Shown here piece by piece: positions 10,866-50,014 of a stretch of DNA of 64,000 nt; positions within the stretch are counted from its first letter, which is position 1; every line of letters starts with the position of its first letter. Under the pieces are notes generated by a model. That model was not told where the DNA came from and searched no databases. It saw nothing but the letters and a program-made list of their open reading frames with translations. Source of the stretch: an uncultured Phycisphaerales bacterium. GTDB taxonomy: Bacteria > Planctomycetota > Phycisphaerae > Tepidisphaerales > Tepidisphaeraceae. Where the stretch lies: positions 160,001 through 224,000 of the forward strand of contig CAVWVQ010000001.1 in the NCBI GenBank assembly GCA_963758525.1, in the 5' to 3' direction. Made by a program: the position numbers and the translations under genes.

Positions 10866-11008
10866 GGGTGTGGCGCTCGAAAGTGGCGATCGGCTCCGAG
10901 TAGGGCGGGATTCATCCCGCCGATTTGTTGACCGGCTGAGAAAACGGCGGGATGAATCCCGCCCTACGATCGCAAAATCTGCAATCGCCACAAATAAAAG
11001 TTACACCC
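10866..11008. mobile_element. 143-bp MITE with REP-like core, copy 1
   Basis: GGGTGT...ACACCC ends; flanks ggccatcg / agccatcg (7 of 8 duplicated). Confidence 0.85.
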
Positions 11009-15823: not shown

Positions 15824-15966
15824 GGGTGTGGCGCTCGAAAGTGGCGATCGGCTCCGAGTAGGGCGGGATTCATCCCGCCGATTTGTTGGCCGGCTGAGAA
15901 AACGGCGGGATGAATCCCGCCCTACGATCGCAAAATCTGCAATCGCCACAAATAAAAGTTACACCC
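15824..15966. mobile_element. 143-bp MITE, copy 2
   Basis: Same sequence as copy 1 with one substitution; acagccgg on both sides, with extra Gs on the left. Confidence 0.85.
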
Positions 15967-28815: not shown

Positions 28816-28958
28816 GGGTGTGGCGCTCGAAAGTGGCGATCGGCTCCGAGTAGGGCGGGATTCATCCCGCCGATTTGTTGGCCGGCTGAGAAAACGGCGG
28901 GATGAATCCCGCCCTACGATCGCAAAATCTGCAATCGCCACAAATAAAAGTTACACCC
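28816..28958. mobile_element. 143-bp MITE, copy 3
   Basis: Perfect 8-bp target duplication ttgatgtc on both sides. Confidence 0.9.
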
Positions 28959-37953: not shown

Positions 37954-39035
37954 TCAAATTTCCCGCGCAGCGAGCCGATCGAGCGGGCTGGTTACCGCCG
38001 TCGCGGGCTTATTCATCACGTGCGTGTAGATCATGGTGGTCTTGAGGTTGGCGTGCCCGAGCAGTTGCTGCACCTGGCGGATGTCATAGCCTGCTTCGAG
38101 CAGATGCGTGGCAAAACTGTGGCGAAAAGTGTGCGGCGAAACACGCTTGCTCACCCCGGCGCGCCGTGCCGCCGCGGCGATCGTTCGTCCCAAAACCCCC
38201 GGATGCGCATGCCAGCGAAACCCGCGGCCCTGCTCGTCGCGACGAAGCGTCGCGCTGGAAAAGACAAACTGCCAGCGCCAATCCACCTCCGCCGACGATA
38301 TTTTGTTGGCCACCGGATCGGGCAGCGCCACGTACCCGCCTCCCTTGACCACATCGCGCCCGTGAACGGTTCGCACCCGCCGGCACCGCTCCGCCAGGGC
38401 CGCGCGCGATGACGTCGGGAGCATCACCATTCGGTCCTTCTGCCCCTTTCCGTCGCGGATGATGATCTGGCCCCGATCAAAGTCGATGTCGCGCAGCCGC
38501 AGCGTGCAGCATTCCATCACCCGCATCCCCGTCCCATAGAGCAGTTCCGCCATCAGCCGATGCATCGATCCCGAGCGGATCGCGTCGAGCACCACCGCGG
38601 TCTCATCGGCACTGAGGACCGTCGGCACCCGCGCCGGCCGCCGCGAGCGCTCCGCGGCGAATCTGCCCAGATGATCCTCCGGCACCTCGCCCGCGAGAAC
38701 CTGCTTATAAAGAAAGACAATCGCGTTGGTCGCCTGATTCTGGGACGAAGCGCTCAGGCGTCGATCGCGCGCCAGGTGGGTCAAAAATGCCTCGACGTCC
38801 GCCGCTCCCAGTTCCCGCGGATGGCGCCAGCGGACCCCCGAGGTCGACGGCGCAACCATCGCCGCCGACGAATCATCCATGGCAAGGAACTGATCGATCG
38901 CGTCCAGCGGCTTGGTTTCAGCCGGCTGGCGCAGTAGCGCAGAAACTCTCGAATCCATCGCTGATAACACTCAACGGTTTTCCGCGCCAGGCGCAGCCGG
39001 GCCGCCACCTCGCCGACGCGCTCCAGCAACATCAT
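37954..39035 (-). CDS. intI: Integron integrase (apparent frameshift near 38930)
   Basis: YGTGMR, GKGQKDR, HTFRHSFATH, LGH, TTMIYTH; integron-specific insert GYVALPD...WRWQFVF...RWH; N-terminus LLERV...WIREFLRY in a second frame. Confidence 0.93.
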
Positions 39036-39139: not shown

Positions 39140-39180
39140 ACCGCTATAGGGACCCCAGCGCGTGAGATTTGTAGTTCTCC
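39140..39180 (+). other. attI site of integron 1
   Basis: gtgagatttgtaG|TT; identity with the second platform ends exactly after GTT (39174-39176). Confidence 0.85.
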
Positions 39181-41909: not shown

Positions 41910-42018
41910 GGAGAACCAGCCAATGCTGTGGACGGCCCCGCGTCGCGTCGAAAGCTTGTCTTTGGTATAGTGTCCCTCGGCGCGTCGCGTTGGCCGCCAC
42001 AGATTGTCATCCGTTGAA
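41910..42018 (+). other. attC 5, core site interrupted by an intron after GTTGAA
   Basis: GGAGAAC...ACAGATT-gtcatcc-GTTGAA. Confidence 0.88.
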
Positions 42019-43954
42019 ATCGGGGTAGGGAAGGCCGGTTTCCCGGCCTCCCCTCCCGCCGAACCGGACTGGCGGTTCTCCCGCATCCGGCTCTCCAGTC
42101 AGTGGGTTCCCGTTCGAGCGGGTTGACAGGCCAAGCGATGGGCTTGTAACAGCGAGAAAAGTCCCAGCTTGGCAAAGTATGCATTGGGCCAGCGGTAGTG
42201 GTCACGACCACCGCCACGTCCACGCCCGCCGTGGCGTCGCCGCAAGATGCTTCGCAGCCTCATACGGATCCACGCGTCCAGCGGAGCGAACGTCTCGCGT
42301 CGGCTGTGTTTGAAGTAGCCAAACCAGCCACGCAGCGTCTGATTGACCGTGCCGATGATGCAGACCATTCGAGTGCCGTTCCGACGTTGGGTCTTTTCAC
42401 GAATGGTGTCTTTGAGTTTCTTGAGGCTCTTGCTCCGGGGTTCTCTTTGACCTTGGCCAAAGTGATAGCCCAGGAAGTCGAAGCCCTTTTGTCGCTCATC
42501 GACGATTCGTGTCTTCTCCGGATGCAGCGTCAGACCGGCTTGCGCCGTCCATCGTTGCACCTCGGCCAGCGCCCGCTCGGCCTCCTCTTGGCTCTGACAC
42601 AGGATCACAAAGTCATCCGCGTAGCGCACCATCTGGAATCCCTGCCGGGCCATCAGATGGTCCAGCGGGTCCAGATAGACGTTACTCAGCAGTGGGCTGA
42701 GCACCGCGCCTTGCGGCGCGCCGGATGCGGGCGTCCACTGGTCCAGTCCTTCCAGCACGCCTTGCGTGAGGAATGATTCGATCAGTTTCAGCACTCGTCC
42801 GTCGGCCACCTTCTGGCTCACCCGCTCCATTAACTGCCGGTGCGGGATCGTGTCAAAGTAGCTTTTCAGATCCGCGTCTACCACGTACCGGTATCCGTCG
42901 TCCAAAAGTTTCTGCACGTGACGCAGCGCGTCTTTGCATCCCCTTCCGGGGCGAAAGCCGTAGCTGTGCTCGTGAAAGTCCTTCTCGAAGATCGGTTCCA
43001 GCACGTGACGCAGCGCGCCCTGAACCACGCGGTCCTGCACAGTCGGTATCCCCAGCGGTCGCCCCTGGGCGCTGCCGGGTTTGGGGATGTAGCACCGGCG
43101 GATCGCCTTGGGCCGATACGTCCCGGCCCTCAGTTCTTCCGTCAGATGCTCGATGTGCTTTTCCACATGGCGCTCGTACTGCTTCACCGTCACATGGTCC
43201 ACGCCTGCCGCTCCCTTGTTGGCCGCCACCTTACTCCATGACGACCAGAGGTTGCTGCGTTTGTAGACTTTATCAATCAGGCTGAACCAGATGCCTCCTT
43301 TGACCCCTTGTTCAAGGGCCTGCAACATGCGCGCTGTCCAGACCGATGGTTCCGCCCATGCCCATCGCGAGCCTGCGCCCGCGATGCGATGGGATTCTTC
43401 GGCTTGCTTAGCCCCGAGTCGGGGCACTCGCGCCGATTGTTGTTCCATTGGTCTATTCATCCCGCATCCACTTTCCTGCGTCCCTTGGCTCCACGCCCGT
43501 TAAGGCGTTTCGTCGCTACTACGGACGCTCTGACTCCTGCCCCGGCGGCTCTTCGACGCCGACTGGTTACGGCGTATGAACTCCGTTCGCTTTCCGGAAC
43601 AGGTCTCCCTGCTTCACGCACCAGCACTTCCAACCATTCCGACTCCAATCACCCTCACGGCCCCGGCATCGCTTTACGAGAGGCTCGTCGCCTCTCTGCA
43701 CGTTACCCTTCAGCTCACCGGGCTTCCCTTGAAAGATGCATCGCTCCCTCGCGGGTCTGGACTTCGCCACTTTTAGGCAGGCTCGTCACCGTTTCAGGCC
43801 GAATCGAGTTCACTTGTGTTTCGGACTGGTCGTTCACCTCCAGTTGCTCTCCACCTGGCCTCACGGCCACGCAGTTACTTTCAGTTACGGGCTGGAGAAC
43901 GCTATGCCCGGAGAGGACTTGCACCTCTCTATGCTGGTACGCTCGCAGGCGCAC
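42019..43954 (-). mobile_element. Group II intron, full length, copy 1
   Basis: 5' GTGCG; domain V GAGCCGGATGCGGGAGAACCGCCAGTCCGGTTC; domain VI ending CCCTACCCCGAT; internal RT. Confidence 0.95.
42099..43460 (-). CDS. ltrA: Group II intron reverse transcriptase/maturase without HNH domain
   Basis: GAAGVD, RPLGIPTVQDR, SYGFRPGR, PQGAVLSPLL, YADD, FDFLGY, RGWFGYF. Confidence 0.96.
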   Translation of the reverse strand: MNRPMEQQSARVPRLGAKQAEESHRIAGAGSRWAWAEPSVWTARMLQALEQGVKGGIWFSLIDKVYKRSNLWSSWSKVAANKGAAGVDHVTVKQYERHVEKHIEHLTEELRAGTYRPKAIRRCYIPKPGSAQGRPLGIPTVQDRVVQGALRHVLEPIFEKDFHEHSYGFRPGRGCKDALRHVQKLLDDGYRYVVDADLKSYFDTIPHRQLMERVSQKVADGRVLKLIESFLTQGVLEGLDQWTPASGAPQGAVLSPLLSNVYLDPLDHLMARQGFQMVRYADDFVILCQSQEEAERALAEVQRWTAQAGLTLHPEKTRIVDERQKGFDFLGYHFGQGQREPRSKSLKKLKDTIREKTQRRNGTRMVCIIGTVNQTLRGWFGYFKHSRRETFAPLDAWIRMRLRSILRRRHGGRGRGGGRDHYRWPNAYFAKLGLFSLLQAHRLACQPARTGTH

Positions 43955-44242
43955 CTAAACCGCTGCGCGGTGGGCAGTCGCCCGGCGTTCGGTACTCTAA
44001 GCATTGCCGCAGCCTTCTCTCTGACGAGCGATTATCAGTTTGCGACACCGCCTTTTTTGTCGGAAATATGCTATGAATACAATCCCCTGTAATAATGTAT
44101 GCGCACGGTTTTTCGGGCTAATTGCTCCCGTGCGTTGACGTCCAAAATCGGTTCAGTTCAACAGACTTTATCCAGCGTGCGACAAGCGGTCGCGAGTACC
44201 GGCGTCGCTGGCGCACGCTGGATAAAGTCCTCTTCGTTATCG
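43955..44242 (+). other. ORF-less cassette body plus atypical attC 6 (44156-44242)
   Basis: R'' GTTCAAC, 18-bp perfect inverted repeat, R' GTTATCG; AT-rich promoter-like interior. Confidence 0.75.
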
Positions 44243-44253
44243 GGCACAAGACG

Positions 44254-44811
44254 ATGCCGACCAGCGAATCCATGCGTGGTGCGTTCGCGACCGATGCGGG
44301 CATGCACGCCCTCTGGTCGCCGGAAGCCTTTTCGCAGGTCCATGACTACCAAACGTGGGCGCGGGAACTGGAGGATGACGCAGACATAACACGGCACATC
44401 TCGGCCGGCGACTTCGTCCCGATCAACATCGGCCGAGACATGGTCGCGGAGGTAGAGGTGCGTATGAGCAGCGCGGGCGTGGCTGCGCTTTCGGAGCGAG
44501 AGCGGCGATACCTGTTCCTCGCCTCCGAGCCGTACCGCTTCGTCTCCCGCGGGGCGGTCGCGGTCGGCGGAATCGAGCATGTTGCCGGGGAGGTGACGCG
44601 GTCGACACGGGCGATGCCGTTGGCGGCCGGGCAATGGTCCGTTGTCGTGCACATGATCAACTGGGACGACGAGCCGGGCGCATTCGCGTCCCCGGGCAAG
44701 CCGGCGGTGACGGCCCTGCCGGACTACCTGGTCACGATCAGTCCGGCCGTAAAAGGCCAAGCCTTCCGCGCCGAGCTGCGTACCTTCCCGCCGCCCGGAA
44801 GTGCCCGATAA
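44254..44811 (+). CDS. Cassette 7 hypothetical protein
   Basis: 185-aa ORF; cassette ends GTTATCGGGCAC / GTGCCCGATAAC. Confidence 0.78.
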   Translation: MPTSESMRGAFATDAGMHALWSPEAFSQVHDYQTWARELEDDADITRHISAGDFVPINIGRDMVAEVEVRMSSAGVAALSERERRYLFLASEPYRFVSRGAVAVGGIEHVAGEVTRSTRAMPLAAGQWSVVVHMINWDDEPGAFASPGKPAVTALPDYLVTISPAVKGQAFRAELRTFPPPGSAR

Positions 44812-44860
44812 CCAGCCAATGCTGTGGACGGCCCCGCGTCGCGTCGAAAGTTTGTCCTTG
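44806..44860 (+). other. attC 7, left half only
   Basis: CGATAAC-cagcc-AATGCTGT...gtttgtccttg, then switches to TTGAA plus intron. Confidence 0.85.
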
Positions 44861-44865
44861 TTGAA

Positions 44866-45194
44866 ATCGGGGTAGGGAAGGCCGGTTTCCCGGCCTCCCC
44901 TCCCGCCGAACCGGACTGGCGGTTCTCCCGCATCCGGCTCTCCAGTCAGTGGGTTCCCGTTCGAGCGGGTTGACAGGCCAAGCGATGGGCTTGTAACAGC
45001 GAGAAAAGTCCCAGCTTGGCAAAGTATGCATTGGGCCAGCGGTAGTGGTCACGACCACCGCCACGTCCACGCCCGCCGTGGCGTCGCCGCAAGATGCTTC
45101 GCAGCCTCATACGGATCCACGCGTCCAGCGGAGCGAACGTCTCGCGTCGGCTGTGTTTGAAGTAGCCAAACCAGCCACGCAGCGTCTGATTGAC
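44866..45194 (-). mobile_element. Group II intron 3' fragment, copy 3
   Basis: Matches 42019-42347; broken at the Y1 element. Confidence 0.92.
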
Positions 45195-45195
45195 T

Positions 45196-45990
45196 GGTGA
45201 GGAAAGGGGGTCATCAGCCTTTTCTGCCGATTGAGTTGATGGTATGCTGGTGGAATGGCCCGTAAACCCCGATTCTCTCCCGGCGGTTTGGTGTATCACG
45301 TGATGAACCGCACGCCGGGACGCGTCGAATTGTTCGAAGCTTCCGGCGACTATCAGGCGTTTGAGAAGGTGCTGATTGAGGCGCTGGATCTGCATCGGGG
45401 GATGCGGCTCTGCGCCTATTGCCTGATGCCCAACCATTTCCATCTGGTGCTCTACCCCAAGACCGATGGCCAATTGTCCCGCTTCATGCAATGGCTCACC
45501 ATGACCCATGCCGCCCGCTGGCATGCCCATCGCCACAGCGTGGGGCGGGGGCATCTGTATCAGGGGCGGTTCAGGAGCTTTCCCATTCAGCAGGACGGCC
45601 ATTTTCTGAGCGTCTGCCGCTACGTTGAGCGGAACGCATTGCGGGCCAATCAGGTTGCCAAGGCACAGGACTGGCGGTGGAGCTCGCTATGGGCCCGGGA
45701 TGATCGCAGCAGTGCGATCGCTCCTTTTCTGGCTCCCTGGCCGGTGGAGAGGCCGGCCCGATGGGTGACGCTGGTGAACCGGGCGGAAAGCGAGGAGGAG
45801 CTTGCCGCGTTGCGCCGCGCGGTTGCCCGCGGCCGGCCGTACGGCGATGATCGCTGGTCGCAACGGACGGCGAAGGCGCTGGGCACGGAAAGCTCGTTGC
45901 GCCCGATCGGCCGTCCGAGCAAATCAAAGTCGCGAAAGAAAGGCTGATGGCGGATGCCGGAAGATTGGCTTATGACCCCCTTTCCTCACC
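45196..45990 (+). mobile_element. Y1/RAYT-like transposase element with 24-bp terminal inverted repeats
   Basis: ggtgaggaaagggggtcatcagcc / ggcttatgaccccctttcctcacc (23 of 24 match). Confidence 0.85.
45255..45947 (+). CDS. HUH Y1 transposase (REP-associated tyrosine transposase-like)
   Basis: YHVMNR, AYCLMPNHFHLVL, GHLYQGRF, RYVERN, WRWSS. Confidence 0.92.
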   Translation: MARKPRFSPGGLVYHVMNRTPGRVELFEASGDYQAFEKVLIEALDLHRGMRLCAYCLMPNHFHLVLYPKTDGQLSRFMQWLTMTHAARWHAHRHSVGRGHLYQGRFRSFPIQQDGHFLSVCRYVERNALRANQVAKAQDWRWSSLWARDDRSSAIAPFLAPWPVERPARWVTLVNRAESEEELAALRRAVARGRPYGDDRWSQRTAKALGTESSLRPIGRPSKSKSRKKG

Positions 45991-45994
45991 CGAC

Positions 45995-46280
45995 GCGCTC
46001 AGGCGTCGATCGCGCGCCAAGTGGGTCAAAAATGCCTCGACCTCCGCCGCTCCCAGTTCCCGCGGATGGCGCCAGCGGACCCCCGAGGCCGACGGCGCAA
46101 CCATCGCCGCCGACGAATCATCCATGGCAAGGAACTGATCGATCGCGTCCAGCGGCTTGGTTTCAACGGACTGGCGCAGTAGCGCAGAAACTCTCGAATC
46201 CATCGCTGATAGCACTCGACGGTGCTCCGCGCCAGGCGCAGCCGGGCCGCCACCTCGCCGACGCGCTCCAGCAACATCAT
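45995..46280 (-). pseudogene. intI: 5' fragment of a second intI
   Basis: Near-identical to 38750-39035 with scattered substitutions; ends at the Y1 element. Confidence 0.9.
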
Positions 46281-46426
46281 GCATCCTAACCTAGCGCATG
46301 AATTCGTCCTGTCAATATTCTGGCGATGAGTTGACACATGTTGCGAAAATAAAGATGATTCTGGAACCGCGAGGGATTTCCTGTAACCGCTATAGGGACC
46401 CCAGCGCGTGAGATTTGTAGTTATGC
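46281..46426 (+). other. Second promoter region and attI
   Basis: Copy of 39036-39176, ending gatttgtaG|TT at 46420. Confidence 0.88.
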
Positions 46427-46431
46427 ACCCG

Positions 46432-46800
46432 ATGAGCACCGCCCACCAAGACATGCTCGCCGGCGGTTGCGTGTCCATTTGGCTCGGCGACATGGCCGAC
46501 GAGGACGAACTCGACGCATACCTCGGCGAGGACTTCGCCTCCGACTTTGGCTTCGACATCCACGAGCCGAACGGGCCGGAGTACGACATTCAGGATTCGA
46601 CCGACGTTCGTTCGCTGCTGGAGGGGTTCTCGCAGTGGCGGCAATTCGTCGGCGCGGCGGTGGCGGCCGCGGCAGACGCAGGCATCACCGAGGCGACGAC
46701 CGCGGTAGTGTTCTACTCCCTCAAGTACGACCCCGATCTGGCCAACAATCCGGTCGCCCCGCTGCGGTTCATTGGCACGGTTCCGCTGTCGGCCGCGTGA
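46432..46800 (+). CDS. Cassette 8, Imm22-like immunity protein
   Basis: VSIWLG..ELDAYL..FASDFG..LLEGFS pattern; acidic. Confidence 0.65.
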   Translation: MSTAHQDMLAGGCVSIWLGDMADEDELDAYLGEDFASDFGFDIHEPNGPEYDIQDSTDVRSLLEGFSQWRQFVGAAVAAAADAGITEATTAVVFYSLKYDPDLANNPVAPLRFIGTVPLSAA

Positions 46801-46820
46801 CTCGCGGCATCCCGGCGGTT

Positions 46821-46927
46821 GCATAACCAGCCGCTGCTGTGGACGGGTCCGCACGCGGCTGTTATCGTTCGTCCTCCAACGTCTGTCGGCGCGTGCGTTA
46901 CCCGCCACAGAGCGTCAGTCGTTATGT
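46821..46927 (+). other. attC 8
   Basis: GCATAAC-cagcc-GCTGCTGT..ACAGAGC-gtcagtc-GTTATGT. Confidence 0.9.
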
Positions 46928-46937
46928 GCCTCGTCGC

Positions 46938-47210
46938 ATGAGCAGTCCGCCACCCACCATCGACGGTGCCCGTGTCCTCTGGTGGGCATGGGCGGGCGAC
47001 CAGCCATTCGGAACATCCGGCGACATCGAAGTTTTCGGGTTCGCGATCTGCCAGTACGAGTCCGGCAGCCTTTACCGCTTTAGCTGCGATCGAAATTGGG
47101 AAACGGTGAACGACTCTGATCATTGCGACGTCGAGGAAGCGAAGGCGCAAATTCCCCAGAACTATTCGGCAGCCGCCGACAGAATCCACTGGCAGTCGGC
47201 CGGCACATAA
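46938..47210 (+). CDS. Cassette 9 small hypothetical protein
   Basis: AICQY..YRFSCDRNWE motif; stop inside R''. Confidence 0.75.
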   Translation: MSSPPPTIDGARVLWWAWAGDQPFGTSGDIEVFGFAICQYESGSLYRFSCDRNWETVNDSDHCDVEEAKAQIPQNYSAAADRIHWQSAGT

Positions 47211-47312
47211 CCAGCCGTTGCTGTGGACGGGCCCGCGTCGCGAATATATTCTCTTCTAATCTGGCGGTTGTCAGCGCGTCGCGTTGCCCGCCACAGAACG
47301 TCATCCGTTGAA
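47205..47312 (+). other. attC 9, core site interrupted by an intron
   Basis: ACATAAC...ACAGAAC-gtcatcc-GTTGAA. Confidence 0.88.
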
Positions 47313-49248
47313 ATCGGGGTAGGGAAGGCCGGTTTCCCGGCCTCCCCTCCCGCCGAACCGGACTGGCGGTTCTCCCGCATCCGGCTCTCCAGTCAGTGGG
47401 TTCCCGTTCGAGCGGGTTGACAGGCCAAGCGATGGGCTTGTAACAGCGAGAAAAGTCCCAGCTTGGCAAAGTATGCATTGGGCCAGCGGTAGTGGTCACG
47501 ACCACCGCCACGTCCACGCCCGCCGTGGCGTCGCCGCAAGATGCTTCGCAGCCTCATACGGATCCACGCGTCCAGCGGAGCGAACGTCTCGCGTCGGCTG
47601 TGTTTGAAGTAGCCAAACCAGCCACGCAGCGTCTGATTGACCGTGCCGATGATGCAGACCATTCGAGTGCCGTTCCGACGTTGGGTCTTTTCACGAATGG
47701 TGTCTTTGAGTTTCTTGAGGCTCTTGCTCCGGGGTTCTCTTTGACCTTGGCCAAAGTGATAGCCCAGGAAGTCGAAGCCCTTTTGTCGCTCATCGACGAT
47801 TCGTGTCTTCTCCGGATGCAGCGTCAGACCGGCTTGCGCCGTCCATCGTTGCACCTCGGCCAGCGCCCGCTCGGCCTCCTCTTGGCTCTGACACAGGATC
47901 ACAAAGTCATCCGCGTAGCGCACCATCTGGAATCCCTGCCGGGCCATCAGATGGTCCAGCGGGTCCAGATAGACGTTACTCAGCAGTGGGCTGAGCACCG
48001 CGCCTTGCGGCGCGCCGGATGCGGGCGTCCACTGGTCCAGTCCTTCCAGCACGCCTTGCGTGAGGAATGATTCGATCAGTTTCAGCACTCGTCCGTCGGC
48101 CACCTTCTGGCTCACCCGCTCCATTAACTGCCGGTGCGGGATCGTGTCAAAGTAGCTTTTCAGATCCGCGTCTACCACGTACCGGTATCCGTCGTCCAAA
48201 AGTTTCTGCACGTGACGCAGCGCGTCTTTGCATCCCCTTCCGGGGCGAAAGCCGTAGCTGTGCTCGTGAAAGTCCTTCTCGAAGATCGGTTCCAGCACGT
48301 GACGCAGCGCGCCCTGAACCACGCGGTCCTGCACAGTCGGTATCCCCAGCGGTCGCCCCTGGGCGCTGCCGGGTTTGGGGATGTAGCACCGGCGGATCGC
48401 CTTGGGCCGATACGTCCCGGCCCTCAGTTCTTCCGTCAGATGCTCGATGTGCTTTTCCACATGGCGCTCGTACTGCTTCACCGTCACATGGTCCACGCCT
48501 GCCGCTCCCTTGTTGGCCGCCACCTTACTCCATGACGACCAGAGGTTGCTGCGTTTGTAGACTTTATCAATCAGGCTGAACCAGATGCCTCCTTTGACCC
48601 CTTGTTCAAGGGCCTGCAACATGCGCGCTGTCCAGACCGATGGTTCCGCCCATGCCCATCGCGAGCCTGCGCCCGCGATGCGATGGGATTCTTCGGCTTG
48701 CTTAGCCCCGAGTCGGGGCACTCGCGCCGATTGTTGTTCCATTGGTCTATTCATCCCGCATCCACTTTCCTGCGTCCCTTGGCTCCACGCCCGTTAAGGC
48801 GTTTCGTCGCTACTACGGACGCTCTGACTCCTGCCCCGGCGGCTCTTCGACGCCGACTGGTTACGGCGTATGAACTCCGTTCGCTTTCCGGAACAGGTCT
48901 CCCTGCTTCACGCACCAGCACTTCCAACCATTCCGACTCCAATCACCCTCACGGCCCCGGCATCGCTTTACGAGAGGCTCGTCGCCTCTCTGCACGTTAC
49001 CCTTCAGCTCACCGGGCTTCCCTTGAAAGATGCATCGCTCCCTCGCGGGTCTGGACTTCGCCACTTTTAGGCAGGCTCGTCACCGTTTCAGGCCGAATCG
49101 AGTTCACTTGTGTTTCGGACTGGTCGTTCACCTCCAGTTGCTCTCCACCTGGCCTCACGGCCACGCAGTTACTTTCAGTTACGGGCTGGAGAACGCTATG
49201 CCCGGAGAGGACTTGCACCTCTCTATGCTGGTACGCTCGCAGGCGCAC
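47313..49248 (-). mobile_element. Group II intron, full length, copy 2
   Basis: Apparently identical to copy 1 at offset 5294; all listed ORF translations inside it match. Confidence 0.95.
47393..48754 (-). CDS. ltrA: Group II intron reverse transcriptase/maturase
   Basis: Identical 453-aa protein to copy 1. Confidence 0.96.
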   Translation of the reverse strand: MNRPMEQQSARVPRLGAKQAEESHRIAGAGSRWAWAEPSVWTARMLQALEQGVKGGIWFSLIDKVYKRSNLWSSWSKVAANKGAAGVDHVTVKQYERHVEKHIEHLTEELRAGTYRPKAIRRCYIPKPGSAQGRPLGIPTVQDRVVQGALRHVLEPIFEKDFHEHSYGFRPGRGCKDALRHVQKLLDDGYRYVVDADLKSYFDTIPHRQLMERVSQKVADGRVLKLIESFLTQGVLEGLDQWTPASGAPQGAVLSPLLSNVYLDPLDHLMARQGFQMVRYADDFVILCQSQEEAERALAEVQRWTAQAGLTLHPEKTRIVDERQKGFDFLGYHFGQGQREPRSKSLKKLKDTIREKTQRRNGTRMVCIIGTVNQTLRGWFGYFKHSRRETFAPLDAWIRMRLRSILRRRHGGRGRGGGRDHYRWPNAYFAKLGLFSLLQAHRLACQPARTGTH

Positions 49249-49536
49249 CTAAACCGCTGCGCGGTGGGCAGTCGCCCGGTGTTCGGTACTCTAAGCATCG
49301 CCGCAGCCTTCTCTCTGACGAGCGATTATCAGTTTGCGACACCGCCTTTTTTGTCGGAAATATGCTATGAATACAATCCCCTATAATAATGTACGCGCGC
49401 GGTTTTTCGGGCTGATTGCTCCCGTGCGTTGACGTCCAAAATCGGTTCAGTTCAACAGACTTTATCCAGCGTGCGACAAGCGGTCGCGAGTACCGGCGTC
49501 GCTGGCGCACGCTGGATAAAGTCCTCTTCGTTATGC
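49249..49536 (+). other. ORF-less cassette body plus atypical attC 10 (49450-49536)
   Basis: Copy of 43955-44242 with 6 substitutions. Confidence 0.75.
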
Positions 49537-49540
49537 AGCC

Positions 49541-50014
49541 ATGGCATGTCGGAGCAAACAACTTACCGCCGCAATGGACTTCGCCTTCGCAGAATTGAAA
49601 CGCCTCGGCGGTAAACCTGACCATTTGCCCGAACCGCTGCGAATCGTCGTCATCATCATCTCGGCTCAAGGCGTGATCGATAACGGCGGTCTGCAATACT
49701 TCCTTGAAGAGGACTTCCCGAACAACCCGCCGTATTCGGTTTTCGTGGATGCGTACCGGACGATAGGTGTTGGAGCCGCTGCCGACGCCATTGCCGCGGC
49801 TGTCGCCTTATTCCCATTCTCCGAGCCTCATCTCTTTAAGAAGAAGCGAAACGAGTTTCTGGATTCATTTAACGACGAGGACGACGAGCCGGTTGATAGT
49901 CCCTTTGAGCCGCTGTCGGACCAGCTGTGTGGTAATCAAACTATATGGCAAGCGCTGGACGCGTATGTCGGTCGGCATAGCCTTGCCTTCCAACAATCCG
50001 GCGGCGGTCGGTAG
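49541..50014 (+). CDS. Cassette 11, DUF4375/DMP19-like protein
   Basis: QGVIDNGGLQYF..AYRTIG; acidic. Confidence 0.75.
   Translation: MACRSKQLTAAMDFAFAELKRLGGKPDHLPEPLRIVVIIISAQGVIDNGGLQYFLEEDFPNNPPYSVFVDAYRTIGVGAAADAIAAAVALFPFSEPHLFKKKRNEFLDSFNDEDDEPVDSPFEPLSDQLCGNQTIWQALDAYVGRHSLAFQQSGGGR

What the first reader, a model, noticed from the sequence alone, without database searches (positions are those of the whole stretch)
43955..49536. Identical introns in diverged host cassettes
Seen: the two 1936-bp introns appear identical, but the ~285-bp flanking cassette bodies differ at 6 positions, all transitions (for example cctGtaat/cctAtaat, gtaTgcgcAc/gtaCgcgcGc, gctAatt/gctGatt). Inference: the empty cassette duplicated and diverged first, and the intron then homed into each copy or was homogenised by gene conversion. 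That would imply recent, site-specific activity.
Basis: partly seen in the sequence, partly recalled or inferred. Interest (0 to 1): 0.7.

Follow-up and report, generated by a model that had tools for sequence, protein, structure and literature searches.

The report
Intron homes to IS91-cassette end hairpin
The two identical introns are copies of a mobile self-splicing intron that likely jumped recently and separately into one exact spot, a small DNA hairpin at the end of an IS91-type jumping element that travels as an integron cassette, and related introns in distant bacteria sit at the same spot.

Summary
Observation confirmed: introns 42019-43954 and 47313-49248 are identical; the 286-bp bodies differ by 6 transitions (Fisher p=4e-6). 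The genome holds four full copies (0-2 differences) and ten copies of the target, four filled, six empty. One copy sits in a different host, and two short-read runs show the same intron in a body variant that is empty here. Repeated recent retrohoming is the best reading (0.75).

The ORF-less 'cassette' is a miniature of an integrase + IS91-transposase element packaged as an integron cassette. The intron is not IIC-attC: AGC triad, protein outside class C, inserted at the R' side. It belongs to an unclassified hairpin-targeting clade; its EBS1 pairs with TTTAG behind the element's left-end hairpin. Three sub-clades (here, Burkholderiaceae plasmids, Desulfobacterota-type genomes) hit that end at shifted registers and are not one clade. 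I did not find this in nine literature searches; the scan noted related intron/IS91/attC links in other genomes. Identical young copies are ordinary; the target specialisation is the novelty. Raw reads were unavailable.

The parts
42019..43954 (-). Group II intron copy 1 (1936 bp, GTGCG...AT), antisense to the cassette array
   Evidence: Rfam RF00029 at 42019-42095; boundaries fixed by 6 empty target copies in the genome
42099..43460 (-). Intron-encoded RT/maturase, 453 aa, YADD, no endonuclease domain
   Evidence: Pfam RVT_1 + GIIM only; TIGR04416 above cut-off
43772..43776 (-). EBS1 (CUAAA) in the domain I loop; pairs with IBS1
   Evidence: Position; covariation of this loop with the exon across relatives
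43955..43971 (-). Target: IBS1 TTTAG (43955-43959) behind a 5-bp DNA hairpin (43959-43971); left end of the miniature element
   Evidence: Sequence; same motif at all 10 element ends in the genome
42014..44236 (+). Miniature (ORF-less, about 290 bp without the intron) IS91-type element as an integron cassette, copy 1; intron inserted after its first 5 bases
   Evidence: Shares its 25-bp left end and its right end plus attC type with the integrase+IS91-transposase element at C2:272503-274988; tandem empty copies on C2
44149..44242 (+). Right inverted repeat (44149-44162) and attC-type hairpin of the miniature cassette
   Evidence: Bottom-strand fold; invariant in all 8 copies
47313..49248 (-). 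Group II intron copy 2, identical to copy 1; ORF 47393-48754
47308..49530 (+). Miniature cassette copy 2 with intron; body 49249-49530 differs from copy 1 at 6 sites
41910..42018 (+). attC of the preceding cassette; its R' box (GTTGAA, 42013-42018) is the intron's 3' exon
44237..44860 (+). Cassette D (ORF 44254-44811, no Pfam match) with a half attC; also follows the filled miniature on C2
44861..45194 (-). 3' fragment (329 bp, 44866-45194) of a third identical intron copy with the same 5-base 3' exon, joined to the half attC
45196..45990 (+). REP-associated-type Y1 transposase (45255-45947) between 19-bp terminal inverted repeats; truncates the third intron copy and the second intI
   Evidence: Pfam Y1_Tnp, NF047646 below cut-off, repeats
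37954..39035 (-). Integron integrase intI, with a frameshift near its 5' end; attI-like site near 39174
   Evidence: TIGR02249 above cut-off; reading frames; attI position inferred from sequence shared with 46390-46422
45991..46422 (-). Truncated second intI 5' part and attI-like site (96.5% identical to the first): copy 2 lies in a second, fused integron

Best explanation
A young endonuclease-less group II intron likely retrohomed several times, independently, into one exact bond at the left end of an IS91-type element whose full-size and miniature forms sit in this genome's integron arrays as cassettes. Shown: identical or near-identical intron copies, filled and empty copies of the target, the host's relation to an integrase + IS91-transposase element, and family-wide covariation of EBS1 with the exon and enrichment of a hairpin before the insertion site. 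Inferred: the intron RNA pairs EBS1 (CUAAA) with TTTAG on the element's bottom strand while the protein reads the adjacent 5-bp DNA hairpin, as class C introns do; it reverse-splices into single-stranded DNA and is copied by its RT. The miniature cassettes had multiplied and drifted apart before the intron arrived, so bodies differ and introns do not. Once inside, the intron likely also moves passively with the cassette, since most of the R' box survives.
For: Four full introns differ by 0-2 of 1936 bases, eight bodies by 1-6 of 286. Ten target ends in the genome: 4 filled, 6 empty; 0 of 16 other hairpin+TTTAG|T sites filled. C3 copy lies in a truncated full-size element that shares only 20 bp of exon with the miniatures. 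Contigs of two short-read runs match the intron without a difference and join it to a body with the 43978-G allele, found only in empty copies in this assembly. Seven metagenome contigs carry 86-95% identical introns with the same EBS1 at the same bond, 5 of them in front of the element's integrase leader or gene (these were selected by the junction). EBS1-exon pairing of 4 or more bases in 55 of 65 rows against 4.5% in swapped controls; perfect hairpin of 5 bp or more at 34 of 47 distinct sites against 6.9% of random flank positions.
Against: Body haplotypes are star-like, so a single insertion into the consensus type followed by duplication cannot be excluded on topology alone; it needs homogenisation of the intron. 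Window copy 1 and the C2 copy share a 2851-bp block with the next cassette (intron 1/1936, body 3/286, cassette D 2 substitutions + 1 indel in 620), so that pair may be one insertion. No promoter that could transcribe the intron was found and no RNA or splicing evidence was obtained. No genome among 140 family and 400 phylum relatives carries this EBS1 region, so specificity of this sub-clade outside G000 rests on junction-selected contigs. The two short-read runs come from one study and are shallow (depth 2-7).
Confidence: 0.75

Rival explanations
1. One insertion, then spread of the filled cassette by integrase-type or homologous recombination, with gene conversion keeping the long intron copies identical while the short bodies drift.
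For: Window copy 1 and the C2 copy share a 2851-bp block including the next cassette and one derived body allele. The third, truncated copy carries the cassette's first 5 bases at a half attC, which fits recombination of an already filled cassette. A 1.9-kb repeat is a better conversion substrate than a 0.3-kb one (general knowledge).
Against: Does not explain the C3 copy in a different host with 20 bp of shared exon, nor the filled 43978-G haplotype. Conversion tracts would have to stop within 24-32 bp of the junction each time. Without conversion about 7 silent changes would be expected in the ORF alone; 0 seen.
Confidence: 0.15
2. Assembly or polishing collapsed slightly different introns into one consensus.
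For: Raw reads of the source could not be inspected; some other 1.2-2 kb repeats in the assembly are also 100% identical.
Against: The C2 and C3 copies each keep a private SNP; many other repeats are resolved at 96-99.9%; independent short-read contigs reproduce the intron sequence. Collapse would not create the empty copies or the C3 host.
Confidence: 0.04
3. The intron targets attC sites as such (like IIC-attC introns); the link to IS91-type elements is incidental.
For: The insertion lies inside the R' box of an attC, antisense to the array, in all five copies in this genome.
Against: No other attC of the arrays is filled; the recognised 5' exon is the element's end, not the attC stem. Close relatives L141, L142 and L145 and the Burkholderiaceae copies occupy the element end without an attC on the 3'-exon side.
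Confidence: 0.06

Closest known systems
Group IIC-attC introns (S.ma.I2 type; PMC3001079 passages, PMC7923331 parts 1-3 of 7 read; example fetched as L159)
   Same: Endonuclease-less RT, short EBS1-IBS1, no EBS2, DNA hairpin before the site, insertion into the bottom strand of an integron array, antisense to the cassettes.
   Different: IIC-attC inserts at TTGT/T in R'' after the attC stem and has a CGC triad; this intron inserts at TTAG/T in R', uses a separate 5-bp hairpin, has an AGC triad with a 5-nt D5 loop, and its protein falls outside class C.
'Unclassified' U1/U2 and g6 intron types of Miura et al. 2022 (PMC8919778; passages, section 7 and rows of supplementary Table 3 read)
   Same: A member of the same protein clade (pBN3, NZ_CP022993, 52% identity) is labelled Unclassified there; U1/U2/g6 are reported to insert just after predicted terminators.
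   Different: The paper names no IS91 or cassette target and the table does not split U1-U3, so the sub-type could not be assigned; the hairpins here are not U-tailed terminators.
Class E and CL1 introns in cassette arrays (Sonbol and Siam 2021, PMC7923331)
   Same: Non-IIC introns inside integron or CALIN arrays.
   Different: Those are other protein classes, partly fragments, one in the cassette orientation; no defined recurring target was shown.
IS91-family elements with an upstream tyrosine recombinase (ISShvi3; ISSod25 group recalled from ISfinder)
   Same: Integrase gene followed by an IS91 transposase; ISShvi3 next to an attC forming a cassette is reported once in Shewanella (PMC9229058, passages); a palindrome beside GTTC at the upstream end matches the terIS description (PMC13181058, passages).
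   Different: Here the element carries its own conserved attC type, has 14-bp inverted ends coinciding with the R boxes, and spawns ORF-less miniatures (8 in this genome; others in L087, L089, L091, L101, L106, L108).

Membership tests
Group II intron retroelement | GUGYG...AY ends, domains V/VI, RT/maturase ORF in domain IV | tested here: met
   ends fixed by empty sites
Group II intron retroelement | Splicing and retrohoming activity | not testable with these tools
   Only inferred from copy pattern; no RNA run was laid
Group IIC / IIC-attC | Protein within bacterial class C | tested here: not met
   41-row clade (SH-aLRT 99) separate from the six class C / IIC-attC rows (SH-aLRT 99); quick tree, few references
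Group IIC / IIC-attC | CGC catalytic triad in domain V | tested here: not met
   AGC here and in relatives; CGC in the class C references
Group IIC / IIC-attC | Insertion at TTGT/T in R'' after the attC stem | tested here: not met
   TTAG/T in R'; reference shows TTGT/T
Group IIC / IIC-attC | Short EBS1-IBS1, no EBS2, DNA hairpin before the site (works-like features) | tested here: met
   (no EBS2 signal above control in 41 rows)
Classes E / F (IIE, IIF) | 5-nt loop in domain V | tested here: met
   feature from PMC3753933 passages
Classes E / F (IIE, IIF) | EBS2-IBS2 pairing and protein in class E or F | tested here: not met
   (one E and two near-identical F references only)
Unclassified U1/U2 type (Miura 2022) | Clusters with proteins labelled Unclassified; insertion after hairpins | tested here: inconclusive
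   pBN3 member lies inside the clade, but other Unclassified references fall elsewhere and U1-U3 labels are not in the table; g1 and g6 references were not obtained
Integron gene cassette (host) | Unit bounded by G|TT of one R' and its own attC; found at several array positions, also in tandem | tested here: met
Integron gene cassette (host) | Excision and integration by IntI | not testable with these tools
   The only intI found in the assembly is frameshifted
IS91 family (host) | Y2/HUH transposase of IS91 type in the full-size element | tested here: met
   NF033538 above cut-off on the C2 element; that copy is frameshifted
IS91 family (host) | terIS: sub-terminal palindrome next to a GTTC-like cleavage tetranucleotide | tested here: inconclusive
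   Palindrome + GTTC or GTAC present in all three host groups, but conservation runs 2-3 bases further and is mirrored at the right end, which fits a recombinase binding arm equally well

The most novel reading that the evidence does not exclude
Hairpin-reading group II introns outside class C have specialised, at least twice independently, on the termination end of recombinase-bearing IS91-type elements: all three sub-clades insert into the bottom strand inside the 4-base cleavage motif (after base 1, 2 or 3), the strand that IS91 releases as a single-stranded circle. The intron would use the host's own rolling-circle or cassette-excision intermediate as its single-stranded substrate, ride the element and its miniature cassettes between integrons and species, and by splitting the end signal change how the host transposes.
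Probability: 0.25. Interest if true: 0.75.

Novelty: new variant of a known kind. Interest (0 to 1): 0.5.

Why it matters
Identical young intron copies in older hosts are expected of an active retroelement and are not surprising. What matters is the target. It shows a second route by which introns enter integron arrays, distinct from IIC-attC, through a selfish IS91-type cassette and its miniatures. It gives a natural series (three EBS1 registers on one conserved DNA end, plus many other hairpins) for testing how non-class-C introns read DNA hairpins, and a testable link between endonuclease-less homing and single-stranded transposition intermediates. It also explains one kind of 'gene-less cassette' as a non-autonomous mobile element.

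Tried and rejected
Raw reads: none served; only Logan contigs at depth 2-7, which cannot phase copies or test collapse; small-share runs were not used as habitat evidence, and a 20-base empty-site joint in X6 and X4 is too short to assign to this organism. EBS3: no alignment column stood out (top columns 47, 46, 45 of 54, confounded by kinship). EBS2: none above control. Promoter or terminator in the miniature or intron 5' part: none by consensus scan. GC skew too weak to place the replication strand. Search for this EBS1 region in 140 family and 400 phylum genomes: only G000; 19 of 400 class genomes hold only distant relatives, 65-79% identical. Viral contigs: one distant relative without its 5' end. 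Fold used a badly chosen stretch and says nothing; the attC fold is. The MFE fold of the intron 5' region (z -2.8) was not used to assign domains. g1 and g6 references could not be pulled from the supplement. The careful tree did not finish; quick trees were used. Rejected: IIC-attC membership; special meaning of 'all transitions'; attC as the recognised structure; the Leon-Roy cassette-formation model (no gene is being captured here).
Full report
Observation. The two introns (42019-43954 and 47313-49248, minus strand) are identical over 1936 bases; the 286 bases that follow differ at six positions, all transitions. Fisher p is 4.3e-6 for 6/286 against 0/1936 and 0.010 against the 326 synonymous sites of the ORF. 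A third identical piece, the last 329 bases, lies at 44866-45194.

Setting. The window is G000:C1:160001-224000; the host is probably a planctomycete, inferred from the nearest intron proteins (Humisphaera, Tepidisphaerales). It holds an integron: intI at 37954-39035 (TIGR02249 above cut-off; frameshifted near its start), a run of attC-bounded cassettes, and a second truncated intI with its own attI-like site. A Y1 transposase between 19-bp inverted repeats joins the two arrays and cuts off the third intron copy. Copy 1 is in the first array, copy 2 in the second.

The genome-wide picture. There are four full introns: the two here, one on C2 and one on C3, the latter two with one private non-synonymous SNP each. 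The ORF-less body occurs eight times: three filled, five empty, two of the empty ones in tandem. Bodies differ pairwise by 1-6 substitutions in a star-like pattern, and no derived allele unites the three filled ones. The empty copies fix the insertion at TTGAA/CTAAAC, five bases inside the cassette, in the R' box of the preceding attC.

What the host is. The first 25 bases of the body also begin a 2.5-kb unit on C2 that encodes a tyrosine recombinase and an IS91-family transposase (that copy is frameshifted) and ends in the same type of attC. Its ends are 14-bp inverted repeats that coincide with the R boxes. The same left end occurs in 12 of 140 family genomes; among the 30 loci fetched (25 from other genomes) are full elements and internal-deletion derivatives of 0.3-0.95 kb bounded by attC sites (L087, L089, L091, L099, L101, L106, L108, L111, L112, L115), and others not preceded by an attC. 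The 'empty cassette' is therefore a non-autonomous miniature of an IS91-type element that lives as a cassette; it descends from a relative of the C2 element, since only the ends align. One such element as a cassette is in print (ISShvi3, PMC9229058, passages). Which enzyme moves it is not shown.

What the intron is. The protein has RT and maturase domains and no endonuclease. Domain V has an AGC triad and a 5-nt loop, unlike class C references (CGC). In a quick tree of 57 proteins it lies in a 41-row clade (SH-aLRT 99) apart from class C including a IIC-attC example, and from single D, E, B and F references (long branches, few references). One member of the clade, on plasmid pBN3, is labelled Unclassified by Miura et al. 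2022 (supplementary table), who report that unclassified U1/U2 types insert after predicted terminators. Of 111 related loci examined, 65 gave an automatic 5' end; with the window copy, 65 rows had at least 6 exon bases. A domain I loop pairs with the last 4-6 exon bases in 55 of these 65 (4.5% in swapped controls), and a perfect hairpin of at least 5 bp precedes 34 of 47 distinct sites (6.9% of random flank positions). Rows include multiple copies from one genome and a few mis-called ends, which were kept. No EBS2 signal was found. So the clade works like class C, a hairpin plus a short EBS1, without being class C. Here EBS1 CUAAA pairs with TTTAG directly behind a 5-bp hairpin.

Specificity. 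The genome has 335 TTTAG/T sites, 26 with such a hairpin; ten are element ends (four filled, six empty) and none of the other 16 is filled. Seven metagenome contigs, found by the junction and so selected for it, carry 86-95% identical introns with the same EBS1; five show the element's integrase leader or gene next to it. Unselected evidence comes from relatives found by protein similarity: five of five Burkholderiaceae plasmid copies inspected sit at a homologous end (hairpin then TTAGT/AC, one base further), empty versions of that element exist, and L077 and L078 (Desulfobacterota-type genomes) sit two bases further along the same kind of end in front of an integrase gene, L075 apparently likewise. 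Most other members of the clade use unrelated hairpins. Holding the eight end-targeting proteins together is rejected (p-AU 1e-36; the group was named after the first tree was seen), which points to at least two separate origins, or an ancestral target lost many times. The end matches the published description of terIS, a palindrome beside GTTC, and IS91's functional intermediate is the bottom single strand (PMC13181058, passages); all three registers fall inside that tetranucleotide on that strand. Against this label, conservation continues 2-3 bases beyond it and is mirrored at the right end, as expected of a recombinase binding arm.

Order of events. The C3 intron sits in a truncated full-size element that shares only 20 exon bases with the miniatures, which recombination between cassettes cannot easily produce. 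Contigs from two short-read runs of one study cover the intron without a difference and link it to a body carrying 43978-G, the haplotype of an empty copy in this assembly. Both point to separate homing events: at least two in this genome, probably three or four. Against: window copy 1 and the C2 copy share a 2851-bp block with the next cassette, so they may be one insertion; and conversion cannot be excluded. Collapse is unlikely because other repeats are resolved and two copies keep private SNPs, but raw reads were not available. No promoter for the intron was found. With the intron in place the predicted attC stem of the circular cassette keeps a 6-bp R box but loses the extended arm (-32.1 against -41.4 kcal/mol for stretches of slightly different length).

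Literature. Searches. 'group II intron' + 'IS91' + 'terIS' gave 0 papers; one search gave three, of which I read only PMC7923331 (parts 1-3 of 7). Also seen: PMC12584367 (part 1 of 8), PMC3552965 (parts 2-3 of 4; supplements listed, not read), PMC3753933, PMC3001079, PMC7306698, PMC9229058, PMC13181058 (passages), PMC8919778 (passages, section 7, table rows; its supplementary figures, which define U1-U3, were not seen), PMC4028801 (supplement list only). The library lacks most subscription papers. The ISSod25 grouping and homing of other introns into insertion sequences are recalled, not from a call. Earlier notes of this scan describe intron/IS91/attC associations in other genomes; I could not check whether they concern this lineage or this end.

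Verdict. The identity of the copies is ordinary for a young retroelement. The less ordinary result is the target: a hairpin-reading intron outside class C that homes to the end of cassette-borne IS91-type elements and their miniatures, with parallel cases in distant bacteria. New variant of a known kind; interest 0.5.

Noticed in passing
G000:C2:272503-274988; L091, L099, L101, L108, L111, L115: Integrase + IS91-transposase elements built as integron cassettes with their own attC family; their 14-bp inverted ends coincide with the R boxes, and their recombinase scores best against the integron-integrase model (below cut-off). They may be self-mobilising cassettes.
   Followed up: partly
window 44808-44865 and G000:C2:about 274988-275030: Two element copies follow half an attC site, as if recombination had used a secondary site in the middle of an attC.
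   Followed up: no
window 37954-39035 and 45991-46305: Both intI copies share the same 5' frameshift, and no other intI was found in the assembly, although the arrays look recently reshuffled; the C2 array has only an intI remnant.
   Followed up: partly
window 45196-45990: REP-associated-type Y1 transposase between 19-bp terminal inverted repeats; it joins a cut intron to a cut intI, suggesting an adjacent deletion that fused two arrays. About ten related sequences occur in the genome.
   Followed up: partly
L086, L094, L097, L103: The same left end follows an AT-rich site and precedes a different reading frame that was not identified, suggesting larger composite elements.
   Followed up: no
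L145, L147: Tandem or nested arrangements of same-site introns with short spacers that recreate the target end.
   Followed up: no
G000:C3:2745193-2745877, 832840-832914, 870454-871755: Fragments of a related intron (74% protein identity) and a full intron of another class elsewhere in the genome.
   Followed up: no
window 10866-11008, 15824-15966, 28816-28958: A 143-bp palindromic repeat in three near-identical copies (99-100%), possibly a small non-autonomous element.
   Followed up: no
window 46408-46800 and 49541-50014: Cassettes encoding an Immunity-22-like and a DMP19-like protein.
   Followed up: no
miniature cassette, window 43955-44149: All ten substituted sites and one 9-bp deletion among the eight copies fall in the first 166 bases, six of them in a 32-bp stretch; the attC part is invariant.
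   Followed up: partly
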